DNA of 35,858 nucleotides, from IMG/VR virus record IMGVR_UViG_3300005893_000001, positions 1 through 35,858 of that record. One strand, 5' to 3'. Positions 29,722-34,410 of the stretch are shown piece by piece. The DNA is from a virus. A model generated the notes under the pieces. It saw only the letters and a program-made list of their open reading frames with translations. It was not told the DNA's origin and ran no database searches. How positions within the stretch are numbered: the first letter of the stretch is position 1; each line of letters opens with the position of its first letter. A program made the translations under genes and the position numbers.

Positions 29722-29918
29722 AACTTTTAGCACTTTTAGCCACATTAAGCCTTCTTAGCGGTTGCGCTCCATTTTCTGGATTCGCAGTAACTAGCGGCAT
29801 CTCTACAGCGAGCTATAAATCCATGGAAGCTGACAACCTTTCTGATAATGGGAAAACGTTCCTAATTATGCAGTTAGACCAGAGATACCAGGCAAAGGAA
29901 ACATCACCAAAAGAGTAA
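29718..29918 (+). CDS. Small lipoprotein (66 aa)
   Basis: ATGA coupling. MKLLALLATLSLLSGCAPF with lipobox LLSGC. Confidence 0.55.
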   Translation: MKLLALLATLSLLSGCAPFSGFAVTSGISTASYKSMEADNLSDNGKTFLIMQLDQRYQAKETSPKE

Positions 29919-29985
29919 ATGCCGTTTTGGCGCATCCGCTGGCTTTCTCGATTTAAAGTCAGCGGGTTAAACATGAGGAGAAGAA

Positions 29986-30069
29986 ATGAAAGAATATGAC
30001 AAATACGTATTATCAGTGGTCGGCGTTATCGTCGCAGTTGCGCTATATGTTTACTTTTTTGTAGTGTGA
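29986..30069 (+). CDS. Micro membrane peptide (27 aa)
   Basis: SD GAGGAG then MKEYDKYVLSVVGVIVAVALYVYFFVV. Confidence 0.35.
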   Translation: MKEYDKYVLSVVGVIVAVALYVYFFVV

Positions 30070-30323
30070 GGAATATGCAACCTGTAAATCGTAGCTATCC
30101 TACAGCGCACTACGAATTGTATGGAGACCTTATGAAAGGTCTTCCTATGAAAGCATGTAGTGAAAAATATACTCTTTCGGAAGCTCAGATAGTAAGTATT
30201 TTTTATAACGTCACTAGAGAGTCGAAGGGGCTTCCTCCTCTCGATCCCAGTCCCCGTATTGTTCGGCCAATGAGCGGAAGAGTTTTTGCAATGGAGTTAC
30301 CTGATGATGATCCCCCCAACTGA
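30066..30323 (+). CDS. Small HTH-like protein
   Basis: KGLPMKACSEKYTLSEAQIVSIFYNV. The alternative start is the ATG at 30075. Confidence 0.5.
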   Translation: MRNMQPVNRSYPTAHYELYGDLMKGLPMKACSEKYTLSEAQIVSIFYNVTRESKGLPPLDPSPRIVRPMSGRVFAMELPDDDPPN

Positions 30324-30510
30324 AGTTGAATGGCGCATTCATCGTGAAGTTTGTGAAAATCATCCAGTTTACCTCATAGCAAAAAACTACTCTCTCACTC
30401 AGGAAAAAGTTATCGAAATTTATTGCAAATGTCTTTCTTGGAGAGAGTCTGAAGAAGGCGAACTCGTCCGAAACTACTCAAACAACCGCCGTAGATACCG
30501 CAGGCATTGA
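30304..30510 (+). CDS. Small HTH-like protein (paralogous motif)
   Basis: GGAG 7 nt upstream of the ATG at 30304. HPVYLIAKNYSLTQEKVIEIYCKC parallels the previous gene. Confidence 0.5.
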   Translation: MMIPPTEVEWRIHREVCENHPVYLIAKNYSLTQEKVIEIYCKCLSWRESEEGELVRNYSNNRRRYRRH

Positions 30511-30770
30511 TGAAAATCTCAAAAAGCTATTTCTTATCATCCGACCATGTCGGAGATAGTCCCCGATCATGTAGATATCGATCATTCGAAGTTTGCTTCA
30601 AAGTCCTTAGATCATCCGATTTAGATTTAGAACTCACATGTGTAGCAAAAGCGTCTAATCTTTCGTTATCGGAAACCCTGAAAATCGCCTCCTTCCTAAG
30701 AAAATGGACGCGCTTCGAAAGCATTCGCAAAGACTACTTCTACAAACTTGAGAACATCCTAAGGCAGTAA
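30507..30770 (+). CDS. Small HTH-like protein (87 aa)
   Basis: ATGA coupling. VAKASNLSLSETLKIASFLRKW. Confidence 0.45.
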   Translation: MMKISKSYFLSSDHVGDSPRSCRYRSFEVCFKVLRSSDLDLELTCVAKASNLSLSETLKIASFLRKWTRFESIRKDYFYKLENILRQ

Positions 30771-30962
30771 TTTGGACATATTTCGGACATTTGGCCATTT
30801 ATTGTCCGATAAGCTGCCAAAAGTGGCCGTATTCCGACGTTTTGGCGGAATATGCTGGATAATACGACGGATTTGGCTGAGTTGTCAGGAAAAACTGGAC
30901 AACTCAAAATCCAGATACTCGCTGAGGGCGAGCAACTGTTCGGTTTTTCCGTACAGTTCAAA
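30771..30962 (+). ncRNA. Structured noncoding tail (possible 3'UTR-derived RNA)
   Basis: Successive hairpins: TCGGACA-N13-TGTCCGA (30783-30809), TATTCCG-N9-CGGAATA (30830-30852), GTTGTC..GACAAC, CTGGA..TCCAG, CTCGC..GCGAG. Seven GGA triplets, plus an eighth in the terminator loop at 30975. The overlapping ORFs (30772..31020 plus strand, 30740..30967 minus strand) have implausible C/W/R-rich composition. Confidence 0.3.
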
Positions 30963-31001
30963 GCCAACTAGTAAGGATGACTTACCAGTTGGCCGTTTCT
31001 T
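30963..31001 (+). terminator. Intrinsic terminator between convergent units
   Basis: GCCAACTAGTAAG-GATGA-CTTACCAGTTGGC (12 bp, one mismatch) followed by CGTTTCTT. Confidence 0.65.
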
Positions 31002-31308
31002 AGAGAAGAACCGTTATTAGTAGTGATCCAGCGACCTTTAAAATTTTAATTGTTGCCGCTGGTAAAAGTTCCGTTAACAATTTTTTAATGATCTTCGCCG
31101 AAAGCCGAGAGACTTTGAAGAAGAATGCATTTTGTCGATCGAGCAGAGCCCTTGAGACTTTGCTAACCACGAGCTCCGTTTTAGATTGAGAGCCCTCTTT
31201 AACGGCTGCTACGACTTTTTGTGCAACCTCTGCGTGCCTTACGACTTCCTCGTGAGGCAAGTTCCCATAAATGGAAACATAGTTATTGTTTGTTATGTTT
31301 GGGGTCAT
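31000..31308 (-). CDS. Hypothetical protein (102 aa) with hydrophobic C-terminus
   Basis: Start chosen at the ATG preceded by TAAGGAGG: MTPNITNNNYVSIYGNLPHEEVVRHAEVAQK...AATIKILKVAGSLLITVLL. Confidence 0.55.
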   Translation of the reverse strand: MTPNITNNNYVSIYGNLPHEEVVRHAEVAQKVVAAVKEGSQSKTELVVSKVSRALLDRQNAFFFKVSRLSAKIIKKLLTELLPAATIKILKVAGSLLITVLL

Positions 31309-31318
31309 CGCGACCTCC

Positions 31319-31342
31319 TTACAGAGCGGTTGTACTCTGTAA
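31319..31342 (-). promoter_or_regulatory. Perfect inverted repeat abutting the SD of the 31308 gene
   Basis: TTACAGAG-N8-CTCTGTAA. On the mRNA the 3' arm is directly followed by GGAGG. Either an operator or a translation-controlling hairpin. Confidence 0.4.
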
Positions 31343-31375
31343 TAATATTTTACCAATTAAATGAATTTCTCGTAA

Positions 31376-31404
31376 TTGATTTAATTCCAGATGCTTGAGA
31401 TACT
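31376..31404 (+). promoter_or_regulatory. Candidate promoter for repeat element R1
   Basis: TTGATT (31376-31381), 17 nt, TGA-GATACT (extended -10, 31399-31404). The predicted start at about 31411 coincides with the first repeat. Confidence 0.35.
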
Positions 31405-31410
31405 TATTGG

Positions 31411-31593
31411 CGCAATGCCCAGCGATGCTGTTCCAACCTATGCGATGCCTAGCTATCCTGTGCGATGCCTAGCCAAGCAATGCGCACCTTAGCATAGCTT
31501 ACCAATGCATATCGGTGCAGACCAATGCAATTCAATGGAGCCGGACAATCGGAACCGGACATAGCCCCTTCAGAAATGAGGGGGCATTTTTTT
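31411..31593 (+). ncRNA. R1: repeat-rich noncoding element ending in an intrinsic terminator (candidate sRNA or protein-binding array)
   Basis: (G/C)C(G/A)ATGC motifs start at 31412, 31422, 31442, 31462, 31477, 31502 and 31522. TGCGATGCCTAGC occurs twice (31441, 31461). ACCAATGCA occurs twice (31501, 31521). There are four GGA in GGAGCCGGACAATCGGAACCGGAC. Terminator is GCCCCT...AGGGGC plus T7 (31564-31593). No plausible ORF. Confidence 0.45.
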
Positions 31594-31594
31594 G

Positions 31595-31623
31595 TTGGCA
31601 TAAATATCCTAACGTTATATCAT
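31595..31623 (+). promoter_or_regulatory. Candidate promoter of the four-gene cassette
   Basis: TTGGCA (31595-31600), 17 nt, TATCAT (31618-31623). The context AACGTTAT(AT)CAT resembles the promoter at 35728-35756. Confidence 0.4.
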
Positions 31624-31658
31624 TGTCCGCAGTCCTTAACAAATAAGGGCAAAGGAAG

Positions 31659-32291
31659 ATGAAAATGAATAACTTAAAGAAATACAAAATCACCATTGAA
31701 GGCGTAACGCCTATAATCATGCACAACTCTGATGCTGCTTCCCCCTTCTCAAAATACATGGAAGAGAGGAAGTCAATCACATCGAAGGGGTCAAAGAAAA
31801 GCGATGAGCAGGTAAAGCGCCTGAGCGAGATCCAGTTTCTAGAGAGCCTCTATTTCACCGAAGAGCTTGGGCTTTTTTTACCTAGCGAAAACATCCAGCG
31901 CATGCTTTTAGAAGCTTGCAGGCGCACAGAAAAGCTTCGAGAAAGCCGTATGTATTTCTCTGGAATCTCTGAAATTGGCCATCCACTTGGCTTCTCCTTG
32001 AAGACAGAAAATTGCAAAGATATTCAGGCGCTTTTGAAAGATCCAAAGAATAAGTATACAAAAATGGTCGTCATTCAAAAAAACCGTGTCTCATCAGTAA
32101 GAGCAATTTTCAATATGTGGGAATGCATGATTGAAGTTGAGATCGACACTGAAACTTTAAACCCGGCACAACTTGAAAAATGGTTTTGCACAGCGGGAAA
32201 GTTTTGCGGTCTAGGAGCAAGAAGGCCAAGCGGGCCAACTCCCGGACTTTATGGCCGTTTTATAGTAACAAATTTTAAAGAGGTGAACTAA
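31659..32291 (+). CDS. Unknown 210-aa protein, first gene of the cassette
   Basis: SD AAGGAAG; the start is the ATG at 31659 or 31665. KYKITIEGVTPIIMHNSD ... LFLPSENIQRMLLEACRR ... GKFCGLGARRPSGPTPGLYGRFIV. No family recognised with confidence. Confidence 0.6.
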   Translation: MKMNNLKKYKITIEGVTPIIMHNSDAASPFSKYMEERKSITSKGSKKSDEQVKRLSEIQFLESLYFTEELGLFLPSENIQRMLLEACRRTEKLRESRMYFSGISEIGHPLGFSLKTENCKDIQALLKDPKNKYTKMVVIQKNRVSSVRAIFNMWECMIEVEIDTETLNPAQLEKWFCTAGKFCGLGARRPSGPTPGLYGRFIVTNFKEVN

Positions 32292-32770
32292 TGATTATGC
32301 TTGAAGATTTCGAAGAAATTTCTATTGAGCCTCGTCCAGATAACGATGAGCTATCCAAGAGGCAAACTCTTTTGGCAAGGATGAAAGAAGCACGATGCCT
32401 TGATTATGGCATTACTTTAGAAGAATCTTTGCTCGAAGACCTGCTCGACATGAAAAAATCGGAAGTTAGCGAAACAGAGTGGAACTTAGCTTTGCTTCAG
32501 ATTTACGGTGCTCTTCTGAATGCGGGATTTTTCTCCACGAGAAGGGGAAAAAAAGGAGCACTTTATATTCATGAAGTTGAGGAAATGCCCCATGTTTCTT
32601 CCGAGAAAAACAGAAGCTCTTTGCAGAAGCTTAAACTTCGGCAGCGCGCACTTTTCAGAGCGCCTTACGATACAAATGAAGAGCTGCAAAAGATTTTCGA
32701 ATTTGAAACGAACAGGAATGCTAAAATCATGTTGCATGATTCTGTACTGTTGAAGGAGCGTTTGAGGTAA
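32291..32770 (+). CDS. Unknown 159-aa helical protein
   Basis: TAATG coupling and SD GAGGTG. No motif recognised. Confidence 0.6.
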   Translation: MIMLEDFEEISIEPRPDNDELSKRQTLLARMKEARCLDYGITLEESLLEDLLDMKKSEVSETEWNLALLQIYGALLNAGFFSTRRGKKGALYIHEVEEMPHVSSEKNRSSLQKLKLRQRALFRAPYDTNEELQKIFEFETNRNAKIMLHDSVLLKERLR

Positions 32771-32985
32771 TGGACTGGTATCAAATTGCTGCTCTATGCA
32801 TTTCTGGATTAGGATCAATTGTAGCTGTCCTTATTTGGTCTTGGTCAGAGAACAGAAATGTCGAAAGACATAGACAAACAGAATTGATGGCTATATTGGG
32901 AATCGTTGACTCGATTCGCCAAGATGTAAAAGATTTTCATGGACGCTTATGCTCACTAGAAGAGCGTCGTAAAGGAGAAAAATAA
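32770..32985 (+). CDS. Single-pass membrane protein (71 aa), paralogue 1
   Basis: MDWYQIAALCISGLGSIVAVLIWSW... then DSIRQDVKDFHGRLCSLEERRK. Confidence 0.6.
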   Translation: MDWYQIAALCISGLGSIVAVLIWSWSENRNVERHRQTELMAILGIVDSIRQDVKDFHGRLCSLEERRKGEK

Positions 32986-33164
32986 TGGACTGGATACAAG
33001 TACTCACAATCATAATCTCAAACTTCGTACTTTTTCTTTGGGCACGATCTGAATCTAGGGAAGATACTAGAATGATACTAGGAATGGTTGATGCCATTCA
33101 AAAAGAAATTAAAGACTTCCATGGCAGGCTATGTGCTATTGAAGAAAGGAATAAAAAATCATAG
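32985..33164 (+). CDS. Single-pass membrane protein (59 aa), paralogue 2
   Basis: Not in the track. TAATG overlap. MDWIQVLTIIISNFVLFLWARSESREDTRMILGMVDAIQKEIKDFHGRLCAIEERNKKS, clearly homologous to the previous gene. Confidence 0.55.
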   Translation: MDWIQVLTIIISNFVLFLWARSESREDTRMILGMVDAIQKEIKDFHGRLCAIEERNKKS

Positions 33165-33300
33165 CATAGCAGTGCGATGCGAAGCGTTGCGATGCTTAGC
33201 GATGCAGTGCGTACCTGAGCAGAGCTGAGCAAATCTTGCCAAATCTTAGGAGCCGGAAAATAGTGGCCGGACGCCCCTCTTCGGAGGGGCATAATTTTTT
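33165..33300 (+). repeat. R2: second copy of the repeat-rich element with its terminator (3'UTR of the cassette)
   Basis: GCGATGC at 33174, 33189 and 33199. TGCGTACCTGAGCAGAGCT (33208-33226) matches R1's TGCGCACCTTAGCATAGCT at 16 of 19 positions. CAAATCTT occurs twice (33230, 33240). GGAGCCGGAAAATAGTGGCCGGAC is present. Terminator is GCCCCTC-TTCG-GAGGGGC plus T6 (33273-33300). Confidence 0.55.
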
Positions 33301-33409
33301 ACTTAAACATCTTTTTCAGCATCTGAAAATAAGCGCCGAGAGCTAAGAAAATAACTATTGCTAAAGAAAGAGTAGGCCCAATCCAGTACACTAAAAAATC
33401 TTCAATCAT
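33299..33409 (-). CDS. Micro membrane protein (36 aa)
   Basis: SD AGGAGA. MIEDFLVYWIGPTLSLAIVIFLALGAYFQMLKKMFK. Confidence 0.4.
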   Translation of the reverse strand: MIEDFLVYWIGPTLSLAIVIFLALGAYFQMLKKMFK

Positions 33410-33569
33410 CCTTTTCTCCTTTCTTAGCATTCGAAATGAAATAGTCGCACTTCCATTCTTTAGGAGCGAACGATGCGTAGCTTTGCGAATACTCGTCTGC
33501 CTTAGCCGTCCAACGATAGCAGTTCTCTTTGAGAGGACATTGTGTGTTAATACACTTGGTGATATCCAA
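33402..33569 (-). CDS. Small Cys-rich protein (55 aa, TTG start)
   Basis: GGAG 6 nt upstream of the TTG. DITKCINTQCPLKENCYRWTAKADEYSQSYASFAPKEWKCDYF follows a C..C...C.R...C pattern seen in small phage proteins. Confidence 0.4.
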   Translation of the reverse strand: MDITKCINTQCPLKENCYRWTAKADEYSQSYASFAPKEWKCDYFISNAKKGEKDD

Positions 33570-33572
33570 ATC

Positions 33573-33671
33573 TCACTCCATCGTTTTTGCGAGTTGAGAA
33601 AAATATATGTAAGCTAAAGCAATGACGAACAGTCCCCATAAAAGCTCAGTACCTATGAATTCTTGAATCAT
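33573..33671 (-). CDS. Micro membrane protein (32 aa)
   Basis: MIQEFIGTELLWGLFVIALAYIYFSQLAKTME. Weak SD. Confidence 0.3.
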   Translation of the reverse strand: MIQEFIGTELLWGLFVIALAYIYFSQLAKTME

Positions 33672-33684
33672 CTCCAAATCCTAT

Positions 33685-33927
33685 TCAAATTTCACCTTGC
33701 ATGATTCGGTATAAGTATTTATTAGCTTCCTTTTCACTTTCAAAACCGTCTTCAATTACAATGCGTCCATATTCTTCTAATAAACCGAAGTGACATACAA
33801 TCTCATATCGTAAATTTCTATCCTGAGTGTCTTCAATCATTGCACTAACAGCAATGATTTCAACAATACTCATGGAATACCAATCACCATTAACATCTTT
33901 GATAAATCCGTTTCTAATCATTTCCAA
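33685..33927 (-). CDS. Hypothetical early protein (80 aa)
   Basis: ORF in the tightly packed leftward operon. Confidence 0.55.
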   Translation of the reverse strand: MEMIRNGFIKDVNGDWYSMSIVEIIAVSAMIEDTQDRNLRYEIVCHFGLLEEYGRIVIEDGFESEKEANKYLYRIMQGEI

Positions 33928-34142
33928 ATCCTATCCAAATCGACTTCCTCTCGAATCAACCTTCGGATCTCCTCGCAGAACGCCGCGTGCTTATCATCAG
34001 GCTCTTCATACTTCAGCTTGCTTCTGCAAAGCTGATCGATCTCAAAGAGCAGCCCTGCCATATCGCGCGCGTGAAGCGCCAGTAGCGCATCTTGCTCGTC
34101 AAAATAGCGGAATGCAAACTCGGGGTGGCGCTCTTCAGTCAT
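33918..34142 (-). CDS. Hypothetical early protein (74 aa)
   Basis: ORF in the leftward operon. Overlapping start/stop with its neighbours. Confidence 0.55.
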   Translation of the reverse strand: MTEERHPEFAFRYFDEQDALLALHARDMAGLLFEIDQLCRSKLKYEEPDDKHAAFCEEIRRLIREEVDLDRIWK

Positions 34143-34410
34143 TTTTCTTCTCCGGGAATGCTGGAAATCTCATCCAGTAAATAATCTCTTCTTCGACTAA
34201 TCCACAGCAGTAACGGCAAAACCAAAAGCCTTTAGGTTTTTTGGTGTAAAAAGCTTCGCCATTCTCCTTAAGGAATTTCGACTCGTTAGAATATCGAGCG
34301 ACACTTATCTCTTGATCTTTGTTTATAACGATAACCCACTCGAAGTTTTCGGGTAGCGCCTCTGAGGCTTTCACCCATTCTCCGAAATTAGTCATCTTCT
34401 CGTGCCTCAA
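34135..34410 (-). CDS. DUF551-like protein
   Basis: EWVKASEALPENFEWVIVINK...IIYWMRFPAFP. The likely start is the ATG at 34395. Confidence 0.55.
   Translation of the reverse strand: MRHEKMTNFGEWVKASEALPENFEWVIVINKDQEISVARYSNESKFLKENGEAFYTKKPKGFWFCRYCCGLVEEEIIYWMRFPAFPEKKND

What the first reader, a model, noticed from the sequence alone, without database searches (positions are those of the whole stretch)
31376..33300. Four-gene cassette bracketed by two paralogous repeat-rich noncoding elements, each closed by a GC-rich terminator
R1 (31411-31593) and R2 (33165-33300) are same-orientation copies of one architecture. Each has several GCGATGC-type short repeats and a conserved 19-mer (TGCGCACCTTAGCATAGCT versus TGCGTACCTGAGCAGAGCT, 16 of 19 identical). 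Each then has a pair of closely spaced short direct repeats, a GGAGCCGGA...CCGGAC block with four GGA, and a GCCCCT/AGGGGC hairpin plus T-run. Between them lie an unknown 210-aa protein, an unknown 159-aa protein and two paralogous single-pass membrane proteins, all translationally coupled and served by their own promoter-like site (31595-31623). The order promoter, short repeats, terminator, protein gene recalls type III toxin-antitoxin loci. The membrane-protein pair recalls abortive-infection or exclusion effectors. The repeats are far shorter than known ToxI-type repeats, and none of the four proteins is recognisable. This is the part of the genome least explained by ordinary phage modules.
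Basis: partly seen in the sequence, partly recalled or inferred. Interest (0 to 1): 0.85.

Follow-up and report, generated by a model that had tools for sequence, protein, structure and literature searches.

The report
Phage VIPR RNA-guided silencing cassette
The two "repeat-rich noncoding elements" are guide RNAs built from 5-base repeats, and the 210-aa gene is their Cas7-like partner protein (a VIPR system, first described in 2026); the guides are aimed at three small genes of closely related rival phages.

Summary
R1 and R2 are strict 5-nt periodic arrays, (A/T)(G/C)C + NN, of 25 and 18 units. Each ends in a shared tail plus an intrinsic terminator.

The 210-aa protein is a Vipr protein. 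It matches PDB 36pp "SUSP1 Vipr protein" at E 4.8e-15, and its AF2 model finds Csm3/Cas7 RAMPs. The locus is therefore a VIPR (Viral Interference Programmable Repeat) system, described in bioRxiv 10.64898/2026.04.26.720920. It is not a type III toxin-antitoxin look-alike.

I read the NN dinucleotides with the published 1-nt-skip code. This gives three in-frame target sites, all in small genes that border the cassette. A related phage contig without the cassette (L005) matches better than the window itself:
- R1 units 13-22: 20/20 in L005, 15/20 in self.
- R1 units 1-14: 24/28 in L005.
- R2 units 1-14: 25/28 in L005.

Other skip lengths, other dinucleotide registers and shuffled unit orders give only background.

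Departures from the characterised systems:
- The scaffold is WGC, not GGY, and the G-loop Asp-Trp is replaced by Ala-Arg.
- The arrays are unusually long, and R1 appears to carry two guides.
- The vap-position gene has no relatives, and two paralogous membrane proteins sit inside the operon.

Expression and silencing were not tested.

The parts
31376..31404 (+). Weak sigma-70-like promoter candidate for vrRNA1 (TTGATT-17-GATACT). It would start transcription at about 31410-31412, where the repeats begin.
   Evidence: Read by eye. It scores 8/12, below the 9/12 threshold of the scan, so this is inference only.
31411..31535 (+). vrRNA1 repeat tract: 25 pentamers of (A/T)(G/C)C + NN. NN code: AA CC GA TG CA TA GA CT TA TG GA CT CA AA GC TT AT TT AA AT GG AG AA AA AA. 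It appears to hold two guide segments, units 1-14 (site A) and units 11-25 (site B).
   Evidence: periodicity; target matches.
31536..31593 (+). vrRNA1 3' tail: TGGAGCCGGACAATCGGAACCGGAC (4-bp CCGG/CCGG stem with a 10-nt loop), then the terminator hairpin 31564-31585 and the T-run 31587-31593.
   Evidence: MFE -24.1 kcal/mol, z -3.7.
31595..31623 (+). Promoter-like site for the vipr operon (TTGGCA-17-TATCAT, 10/12).
31659..32291 (+). vipr: 210-aa RAMP (Cas7/Csm3-like) protein predicted to polymerise on the vrRNA repeats. Its G-loop reads GLGARRP.
32291..32770 (+). 159-aa helical protein with no relatives, in the position of a vap (vipr-accessory) gene. It is translationally coupled to vipr.
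   Evidence: Position only; there is no family assignment.
32770..32985 (+). 71-aa single-pass membrane protein, paralogue 1. Function unknown.
32985..33164 (+). 59-aa single-pass membrane protein, paralogue 2. Function unknown.
33158..33247 (+). vrRNA2 repeat tract: 18 pentamers. NN code: AT AT AG GA GA GT GA TT GA AG GT TG AG TG AA TT AA TT. Units 1-14 address site C. Units 17-18 (33238-33247) are a polymorphic 10-nt duplication.
33248..33300 (+). vrRNA2 3' tail: AGGAGCCGGAAAATAGTGGCCGGAC, then the terminator hairpin 33273-33290 and a T-run.
30096..30136 (+). Site A, self copy, inside ORF 30066-30323. This is the own-genome sequence closest to vrRNA1 units 1-14 (19/28). All 25 units laid on this site score 31/50. 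The match is in frame, with the skipped base at the wobble position.
31097..31140 (-). Site B, self copy, inside ORF 31000-31356(-), the gene next to vrRNA1. It matches vrRNA1 units 11-25 at 18/30 (units 13-22: 15/20). The homologue in L005 matches 24/30 (units 13-22: 20/20).
33919..33959 (-). Site C, self copy: the last 13 codons plus the stop of ORF 33918-34142(-). It matches vrRNA2 units 1-14 at 24/28 (25/36 over all 18 units).

Best explanation
The region is a phage-borne VIPR (Viral Interference Programmable Repeat) system with the layout vrRNA1 - vipr - vap-position gene - two small membrane-protein genes - vrRNA2.

By analogy with the solved SUSP1 and P. fulva systems, the mechanism would be as follows:
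1. One Vipr protomer binds each 5-nt repeat of the RNA.
2. It hides the conserved trinucleotide (here A/U-G-C, not G-G-Y) and displays the two variable bases.
3. The displayed dinucleotides pair with double-stranded DNA in a two-on, one-off pattern.
4. The resulting filament blocks transcription.

Here the guides address three small early-region genes that border the cassette's own insertion slot: ORF 30066-30323, ORF 31000-31356 and ORF 33918-34142. They match the alleles of a related, cassette-free phage better than the phage's own alleles. The most likely function is therefore silencing of closely related competitor phages during co-infection or in lysogens.

Shown here:
- Vipr homology and RAMP fold.
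- The pentamer architecture, the shared tail and the terminators.
- Code-consistent natural near-targets.
- The cassette as variable cargo.

Inferred, not shown:
- RNA expression, polarity and processing.
- Ribonucleoprotein formation.
- Silencing.
- Any role for the 159-aa protein and the membrane pair.
For: Protein:
- The 210-aa ORF matches PDB 36pp_D 'SUSP1 Vipr protein' at E 4.8e-15 over residues 8-191.
- It belongs to a family with 1557 50%-identity representatives at E<=1e-3.
- The AF2 model has pLDDT 91.3. Its best PDB folds are Csm3/Cas7 subunits of type III and VII CRISPR complexes (E 1.8e-5, probability 1.00).
- The SUSP1 RNA-contact residues H17, K33, E71, R138 and R179 are kept as H22, K38, E77, R148 and R189 (residue roles from 10.64898/2026.04.26.720927).

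RNA:
- R1 and R2 are the only two 5-nt periodic arrays in the window, and they flank vipr on its strand.
- Each is followed by a shared tail and a terminator.
- SUSP2 has the same upstream-plus-downstream layout and matches the published description.

Code:
- With the published 1-nt skip, L005 is matched 35/50 by R1 and 28/36 by R2. These are z 7.6 and 7.7 against 1000 unit-order shuffles, with 0/1000 reaching the observed score.
- Skips of 0, 2 or 3 nt give background, 19-29.
- R1 units 13-22 match L005 20/20. The same pattern has no match in 2.9 million IMG/VR contigs.
- Only the dinucleotide directly 3' of WGC carries the signal.
- All matches are in frame, with the skipped base at the wobble position, as the paper reports for natural targets.

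Context:
- L005 and L006 are syntenic relatives that carry other cargo genes exactly where the window carries the cassette. They have no pentamer arrays.
- A rival allele (L011) and the window-type allele (L021) come from the same ENA sample, ERZ27237459.
Against: - There are no expression data, so RNA ends, polarity and processing are inferred.
- Sites A and C have no perfect target in any collection searched.
- R2 barely separates self from rival: 24/28 on its own gene against 25/28 in L005 and L011.
- The guide-segment boundaries (units 1-14 and 11-25) were chosen after seeing the matches. Over full-length guides L005 scores 70% and 78%, just under the paper's 80% criterion.
- The G-loop lacks the Asp and Trp that were mutationally or structurally important in SUSP1 (A187 and R188).
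- Arrays of 25 and 18 units exceed the published range of 9-16.
- No other locus with the same scaffold and tail was found, so neither could be tested by covariation.
- The 159-aa protein shows no similarity to the vap-position genes of SUSP2 or LESphi2.
Confidence: 0.85

Rival explanations
1. It is a VIPR system, but it works mainly on its own genome. The vrRNAs would dampen or time the expression of the phage's own neighbouring early genes (autoregulation) and would not attack rivals.
For: All three best own-genome matches lie within 1.3 kb of the cassette and are in frame. R2 matches the phage's own gene 24/28 over units 1-14, above the 80% level used in the paper for calling targets.
Against: - Sites A and B match the rival L005 clearly better than self: 24/28 against 19/28, and 20/20 against 15/20.
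- Full-length self matches are 62% and 69%, below 80%.
- The published systems showed no self-targets.
- The paper reports that perturbing NN pairing abolished silencing.
Confidence: 0.1
2. One reading: a type III toxin-antitoxin-like or abortive-infection module. R1 and R2 would be antitoxin RNAs, and one of the proteins (or the membrane pair) would be the toxin.
For: The gene order is promoter, repeats, terminator, protein gene. Two small membrane proteins of unknown function sit in the operon.
Against: - The protein next to the repeats is a RAMP/Vipr, not a ToxN/AbiQ-type endoribonuclease.
- The repeat unit is 5 nt with two hypervariable positions that spell out rival-phage gene sequences. 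A pseudoknotted antitoxin repeat would not do this.
- No PADLOC defence model is hit.
Confidence: 0.02
3. A decayed or inactive VIPR remnant. The cassette would be carried as passive cargo, with a Vipr that no longer binds its RNA (the G-loop Asp-Trp is lost) and arrays that have drifted.
For: D177 and W178 of SUSP1 are A187 and R188 here. One metagenome copy has a 1-nt deletion in the 159-aa gene. The 3' units of both arrays are low in complexity (AA/TT).
Against: - The vipr ORF is intact and identical across at least four independent samples.
- The nearest Vipr relatives (P0002-P0005) also lack the Asp, so this is a clade trait and not a lesion.
- The scaffold bases remain highly regular. 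The second scaffold base is G in 18 and the third is C in 25 of the 28 pentamers tallied for R1, a frame that runs 3 pentamers past the repeat tract into the tail.
- A 20/20 match to a rival allele is not expected of a drifting array.
Confidence: 0.03

Closest known systems
VIPR systems, type II exemplars (Escherichia phage SUSP1/SUSP2; Pseudomonas fulva prophage). bioRxiv 10.64898/2026.04.26.720920 and 10.64898/2026.04.26.720927.
   Same: - A Vipr protein of about 200 aa with a RAMP fold.
- vrRNAs made of tandem pentamers with three conserved and two variable bases.
- A conserved 3' tail.
- One vrRNA upstream of vipr and more downstream of the accessory gene.
- Phage-borne.
- Target code with a 1-nt skip that falls on codon wobble positions.
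- Targets in competing, related mobile elements.
   Different: - Only about 30% protein identity.
- The scaffold is A/U-G-C, not G-G-Y.
- The G-loop is GLGARRP, not GVGDWRP.
- Arrays have 25 and 18 units, against 9-16.
- vrRNA1 appears to carry two guide segments with no tail between them.
- The tail ends in a plain intrinsic terminator. Whether it forms a pseudoknot is unknown.
- The vap-position gene is unrelated.
- Two membrane-protein genes lie inside the operon.
- The targets are alleles of the genes that border the cassette itself.
Class 1 CRISPR backbone subunits (Cas7/Csm3 filaments on crRNA)
   Same: RAMP fold with G-loop and thumb. The best structural matches are Csm3 and type VII Cas7. 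One protomer binds per fixed number of RNA bases, with periodic base flipping.
   Different: - There is no CRISPR array, no cas genes and no other RAMPs.
- The period is 5 nt with 3 bases sequestered, not 6 nt with 1 base flipped.
- The guide is noncontiguous.
- The system is carried by a phage.
Type III toxin-antitoxin systems (ToxIN, CptIN, TenpIN)
   Same: Promoter, then tandem RNA repeats, then a terminator, then a protein gene. Found on mobile elements and involved in phage conflict.
   Different: - ToxI-type repeats are about 34-36 nt and are cut by the toxin.
- The toxin is an endoribonuclease fold.
- Here the repeats are 5 nt, the protein is a RAMP, and the variable bases encode DNA targets.
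Vipr loci of Vibrio phage 1.266.O and Listonella phage phiHSIC (unannotated in GenBank)
   Same: Vipr homologues at 24-28% identity, flanked by several pentamer arrays that each have a leader and a tail hairpin.
   Different: Their scaffold reads G-C-A + NN on the vipr strand. They keep the G-loop Asp but lack the equivalents of H17 and R138. The window keeps H and R but lacks the Asp.

Membership tests
VIPR system | Vipr protein: a stand-alone RAMP homologue with RRM core, glycine-rich loop and thumb. | tested here: met
   PDB 36pp_D SUSP1 Vipr, E 4.8e-15. AF2 pLDDT 91.3 with Csm3/Cas7 as best folds. G-loop G-L-G-x-x-R-P and thumb Arg conserved.
VIPR system | vrRNA: tandem pentanucleotide repeats with a conserved trinucleotide alternating with a hypervariable dinucleotide (GGY/NN 'or a related consensus'; at least 4 units, typically 9-16). 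| tested here: met
   25 and 18 units of (A/T)(G/C)C+NN. This fits the published alternative 'YNNNG' class. The unit number exceeds the typical range.
VIPR system | A conserved, structured 3' tail after the repeat tract. | tested here: inconclusive
   R1 and R2 share GGAGCCGGA.AAT.G...CCGGAC plus a GC-rich hairpin and T-run. With only two copies and no relatives, structure and covariation cannot be tested. A pseudoknot was neither shown nor excluded.
VIPR system | vrRNAs lie in the intergenic regions flanking vipr, in a minimal locus with an accessory vap gene. | tested here: met
   vrRNA1 lies upstream and vrRNA2 downstream, both on the vipr strand. SUSP2 has the same layout. The vap identity of the 159-aa gene is positional only.
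VIPR system | NN dinucleotides specify DNA targets with a 1-nt skip, and natural targets reach at least 80% NN match. | tested here: met
   L005: 24/28, 24/30 (including 20/20 over 10 units) and 25/28 for the three guide segments. Only skip 1 and only the NN register work. Caveat: segment boundaries were set after the fact, and full-length scores are 70% and 78%.
VIPR system | No self-target at 80% NN match or above. | tested here: inconclusive
   Full-length guides score 62% and 69% on the window. R2 units 1-14 score 24/28 (86%) on the phage's own ORF 33918-34142.
VIPR system | vrRNAs are expressed as discrete RNAs, co-purify with Vipr, and repress transcription of matching targets. | not testable with these tools
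   This needs small-RNA sequencing, pull-down and reporter assays.
VIPR system | Assignment to one of types I-VII (Vipr phylogeny, vrRNA architecture, vap family). | not testable with these tools
   The type-defining tree and data files are not held. The nearest relative is only 40% identical, on a 1.4-kb contig.
Type III toxin-antitoxin (ToxIN-like) | Tandem RNA repeats of about 34-36 nt that are processed by, and inhibit, the adjacent toxin. | tested here: not met
   The repeat unit is 5 nt. No longer-period repeat family was found in R1 or R2.
Type III toxin-antitoxin (ToxIN-like) | The adjacent protein is a ToxN/AbiQ/CptN-type endoribonuclease. | tested here: not met
   The adjacent protein is a RAMP/Vipr. 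There are no Pfam, PADLOC or NCBIfam hits to toxin families.
CRISPR-Cas | A repeat-spacer array with repeats of about 28-37 nt, plus cas genes. | tested here: not met
   No such repeats were found, there is no Rfam hit, and the only Cas-like protein is the single RAMP.

The most novel reading that the evidence does not exclude
One 25-unit vrRNA carries two abutting, slightly overlapping guide segments against two different genes. Together with vrRNA2, all three guide segments are aimed at the genes that border the cassette's own insertion slot in cassette-free relatives. This would be 'slot-guarding' by a selfish cargo module, and it comes with a new scaffold/G-loop pairing (A/U-G-C read by an Ala-Arg G-loop) and membrane-protein accessories not described for VIPR.
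Probability: 0.3. Interest if true: 0.7.

Novelty: new member of a known kind. Interest (0 to 1): 0.5.

Why it matters
VIPR was described only in 2026, and its natural biology rests on a few clades. This locus adds four things.

1. It is an independent, sequence-only confirmation of the two-on, one-off code in a distant Vipr lineage with a different scaffold trinucleotide. The controls cover skip length, register and shuffles.
2. It offers a small natural test of which protein residues read which scaffold base. The Asp is lost where G1 is lost, and the thumb Arg is lost where G2 is lost.
3. It is a concrete rival-phage pair, the window phage against an L005-type phage. Three target sites sit next to the cassette's own slot, which makes self/non-self discrimination and mismatch tolerance directly testable.
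4. It gives candidates for new features: a dual-target guide RNA and membrane-protein accessories.

For genome annotation, it shows that such loci can be found by a simple 5-nt periodicity scan next to PHROG 4652 proteins.

Tried and rejected
RNA families and near relatives:
- Rfam found nothing in the window.
- DNA similarity of the locus to GenBank phages found nothing.
- The word-indexed protein search found only identical or near-identical copies of Vipr and of the 159-aa protein.
- IMG/VR holds no relative of Vipr or of target genes A and C.
- JGI metagenomes hold only one identical copy and two 37%-identity relatives of gene C.
- GTDB species genomes hold none.

Exact-pattern target scans:
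- R2 units 4-12 in IMG/VR gave one hit, L004. That contig has 31% GC, is unrelated to the window, and its flanks match at random level, so I judged it chance.
- R2 units 2-14 in JGI metagenomes gave none.
- R1 units 5-14 and units 13-22 in IMG/VR gave none.

Tail motif scan: 0 hits in IMG/VR. The 4 hits in genomes are all in high-GC DNA without pentamers, about the number expected by chance. No covariance model was built for this reason.

The 159-aa protein:
- AF2 on the single sequence gave pLDDT 42.7, which is unusable, so I ran no fold search on it.
- It has no similarity to the gene downstream of vipr in SUSP2 or LESphi2.
- There is only a weak N-terminal resemblance (E 0.002, pairwise) to the gene fragment downstream of the closest Vipr homologue.

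Ideas considered and dropped:
- CsrA/RsmZ-like GGA sponge: only 3-4 GGA, all in the tail.
- TRAP/HutP-like triplet-repeat RNA.
- DNA iterons.

These were dropped once the Vipr match and the NN-code matches were in hand.

The contig of the closest Vipr homologue (L001) has no pentamer array in its 1.4 kb.
Full report
**What is in the sequence.** The window is a nearly complete genome of a tailed phage, about 36 kb. It carries a replication initiator, RusA, terminase, portal, major head protein and RecE/RecT-like genes. No close relative exists among GenBank phages, and the terminase is at most 39% identical to any of them.

- two same-strand noncoding elements;
- a shared GGAGCCGGA...CCGGAC block in each;
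- GC-rich hairpins with T-runs at 31564-31585 and 33273-33290;
- a good promoter-like site at 31595-31623;
- four ORFs joined by TAATG overlaps;
- two small membrane proteins that are paralogues (43% identity).

The decisive feature was not noticed. Both elements are strict 5-nt periodic arrays of (A/T)(G/C)C followed by two variable bases. R1 has 25 units (31411-31535) and R2 has 18 (33158-33247). These are the only two such places in the window. In-phase GC reaches 11 of 12 units, against a maximum of 7 in 200 Markov simulations.

The 'conserved 19-mer' is a by-product of this scaffold. Its 12 scaffold bases are identical and its NN bases match 4/8, and 55% of unit-order shuffles give an equally good 4-unit match.

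**Identity of the protein.** Pfam, NCBIfam and PADLOC give nothing significant, and PHROGs gives only phrog_4652, 'unknown function'. A search of PDB sequences gives one clear hit: 36pp chain D, 'SUSP1 Vipr protein', E 4.8e-15 over residues 8-191.

The literature search led to two 2026 bioRxiv preprints from the Doudna and Brohawn laboratories. They describe VIPR systems as follows:
- A phage-encoded RAMP protein, Vipr, polymerises on vrRNAs, one protomer per repeat.
- The vrRNAs consist of 9-16 tandem pentamers (GGY + NN) followed by a conserved 3' tail.
- Each protomer hides GGY and presents NN.
- The NN dinucleotides read double-stranded DNA with one skipped base between them.
- Binding silences transcription.
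- Natural targets are competing phages and satellites.
- Alternative repeat consensuses (NNNGG, YNNNG, NNNNG) and seven types are reported.

Further evidence on the window protein:
- An exhaustive HMMER search shows it belongs to a large family: 1557 representatives at E<=1e-3. Its nearest relative is only 40% identical.
- An AF2 model built on 25 family members has pLDDT 91.3.
- Its best PDB fold matches are Csm3/Cas7 subunits of type III and type VII CRISPR complexes. This is the RAMP relationship the paper describes.

**Does the code hold here?** I took the two bases after each WGC as the guide and joined them with one wildcard, as in the paper's method.

Within the window, no site reaches 80% for the full guides. 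The best hits are still non-random. They are reached by 1.7% (R1) and 0.3% (R2) of unit-order shuffles, they are in frame with the skip at the wobble base, and they lie in genes next to the cassette.

| Guide | Own-genome site | Score |
|---|---|---|
| R1 | ORF 30066-30323, at 30096 | 31/50 |
| R2 | Last codons of ORF 33918-34142(-) | 25/36 (24/28 over units 1-14) |

Homologues of the second gene led to contigs of related phages. One of them is L005 (Logan SRR20958183, 4965 bp). It is syntenic with the window but carries two other genes exactly where the window has the cassette. L006 does likewise with two different genes.

L005 is matched better than self:

| Guide segment | L005 | Self |
|---|---|---|
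| R1, all 25 units at site A | 35/50 | 31/50 |
| R2, all 18 units at site C | 28/36 | 25/36 |
| R1 units 1-14 (site A) | 24/28 | 19/28 |
| R2 units 1-14 (site C) | 25/28 | 24/28 |
| R1 units 13-22 (site B) | 20/20 | 15/20 |
| R1 units 11-25 (site B) | 24/30 | 18/30 |

Controls:
- The full-length L005 scores are z 7.6 and 7.7 against 1000 shuffles, and none of the shuffles reaches them. Skips of 0, 2 or 3 nt give background only.
- A sliding 10-unit scan found the third site, site B. It lies in the L005 homologue of ORF 31000-31356, the gene directly next to R1, and it is in frame.
- The site B pattern has no match in 2.9 million IMG/VR contigs.
- Taking any other dinucleotide register within the pentamer destroys all three matches.

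The published code therefore applies to this WGC-scaffold lineage. R1 appears to carry two guide segments (units 1-14 and 11-25) that share units 11, 13 and 14.

**Scaffold and protein differences.** I aligned the window protein to SUSP2 Vipr, whose 179-aa core (chain residues 3-181) is identical to that of the solved SUSP1 protein. The window protein keeps H17, K33, E71, R138 and R179. It has Ala and Arg in place of D177 and W178. According to the structure paper, D177 reads G1 and W178 stacks on G2. The four nearest relatives also lack the Asp.

| Phage | Scaffold | Residues at the read-out positions |
|---|---|---|
| SUSP2 | GGU | D, R kept |
| LESphi2 | GGC | D, R kept |
| Vibrio phage 1.266.O, phiHSIC | GCA | Asp kept; H17 and R138 lost |
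| Window | (A/U)GC | R138 kept; Asp lost |

. The pattern is consistent with each residue tracking 'its' base. It rests on four lineages and on assumed RNA polarity, so it is an inference.

**What remains open.**
- There are no expression data. Plus-strand polarity rests on the terminators, on co-orientation with vipr, and on the tail lying 3' of the repeats.
- The tail could not be tested for conservation because no second locus of this clade was found. Copies of this phage from other samples are identical, apart from an in-phase 10-nt (two-unit) deletion in R2.
- Perfect targets for sites A and C were not found.
- R2 hardly discriminates self (24/28) from L005 or L011 (25/28). Autoregulation of the phage's own gene is therefore not excluded.
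- The 159-aa protein has no relatives. Its single-sequence model is unusable (pLDDT 42.7), and it shows no similarity to the vap-position genes of SUSP2 or LESphi2. There is only a weak N-terminal resemblance to the gene fragment downstream of the closest Vipr homologue.
- The two membrane proteins have no informative family hit. Such genes are not mentioned in the VIPR paper (0 occurrences of 'transmembrane').
- The VIPR type (I-VII) and the host could not be determined.

**Verdict.** The finding is a genuine VIPR system, so it is a member of a kind described in 2026 and not a new kind of system. The type III toxin-antitoxin analogy is rejected on its defining features.

The locus still adds something:
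- a distant lineage with an altered scaffold and G-loop;
- natural near-targets that independently confirm the code;
- a probable dual-target vrRNA;
- targets that are the rival alleles of the genes bordering the cassette's own slot;
- unexplained membrane-protein cargo.

Noticed in passing
window 33238-33247; L017 2756-2916, L012 2737-2897: Two metagenome copies of this phage lack exactly 10 nt (two pentamer units, one copy of CAAATCTT+GC) of vrRNA2. The repeat number is therefore polymorphic, and the change is in phase, in natural populations.
   Followed up: yes
window 32386 (vap-position gene); L016: One JGI contig (3300026008) has a 1-nt deletion that splits the 159-aa gene into 113 + 42 aa. 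This is either a natural knock-out or an assembly error. L019 shows five clustered G-to-A differences at 32479-32522, close to the end of that contig.
   Followed up: partly
L029 (Listonella phage phiHSIC) 3143-3400; L030 (Vibrio phage 1.266.O) 2353-2500 and 3163-3330: Unannotated vrRNA arrays with a G-C-A + NN scaffold flank Vipr homologues annotated as 'hypothetical protein'. In phiHSIC, the annotated ORF21 lies on top of the array and is probably spurious.
   Followed up: partly
window 30066-30323 and 30286-30510: Two adjacent, overlapping small ORFs are distant paralogues. One L005 protein hits both, at 45% and 22% identity. Their sequences look helix-turn-helix-like, but no family is hit. 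The first one holds target site A.
   Followed up: partly
window 30916-30942: Terminator-like hairpins on both strands lie where the rightward operon that ends at ORF 30507-30770 meets the leftward gene 31000-31356. This is a likely bidirectional terminator.
   Followed up: no
L005 1335-1969; L006 860-1701: Related phages carry different unknown cargo genes (131 aa + DUF551-like 79 aa; 160 aa + 120 aa) in exactly the slot that holds the VIPR cassette in the window. The slot is a hot spot for variable cargo between conserved flanking genes.
   Followed up: partly
L011 and L021 (both ENA ERZ27237459): A rival-type allele of target gene C (64% aa identity; R2 match 26/36) and the window-type allele occur in the same sample. 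The VIPR phage and potential targets therefore co-occur.
   Followed up: partly
L015 (ENA ERZ27237455 k141_66744, 35919 bp): A 35,919-bp contig is 100% identical to the window over the stretches compared (window 29901-34300). The window is therefore probably an essentially complete genome, possibly circularly permuted. I did not look for an integrase.
   Followed up: no
L004 4929-4954 (IMGVR_UViG_3300033428_000236): This was the only IMG/VR match to R2 units 4-12. It encodes ...WDEVDLDRVC..., which resembles the true target peptide (REEVDLDRIW). However, the contig has 31% GC and is unrelated, and the flanks match at random level, so I judged it chance.
   Followed up: yes
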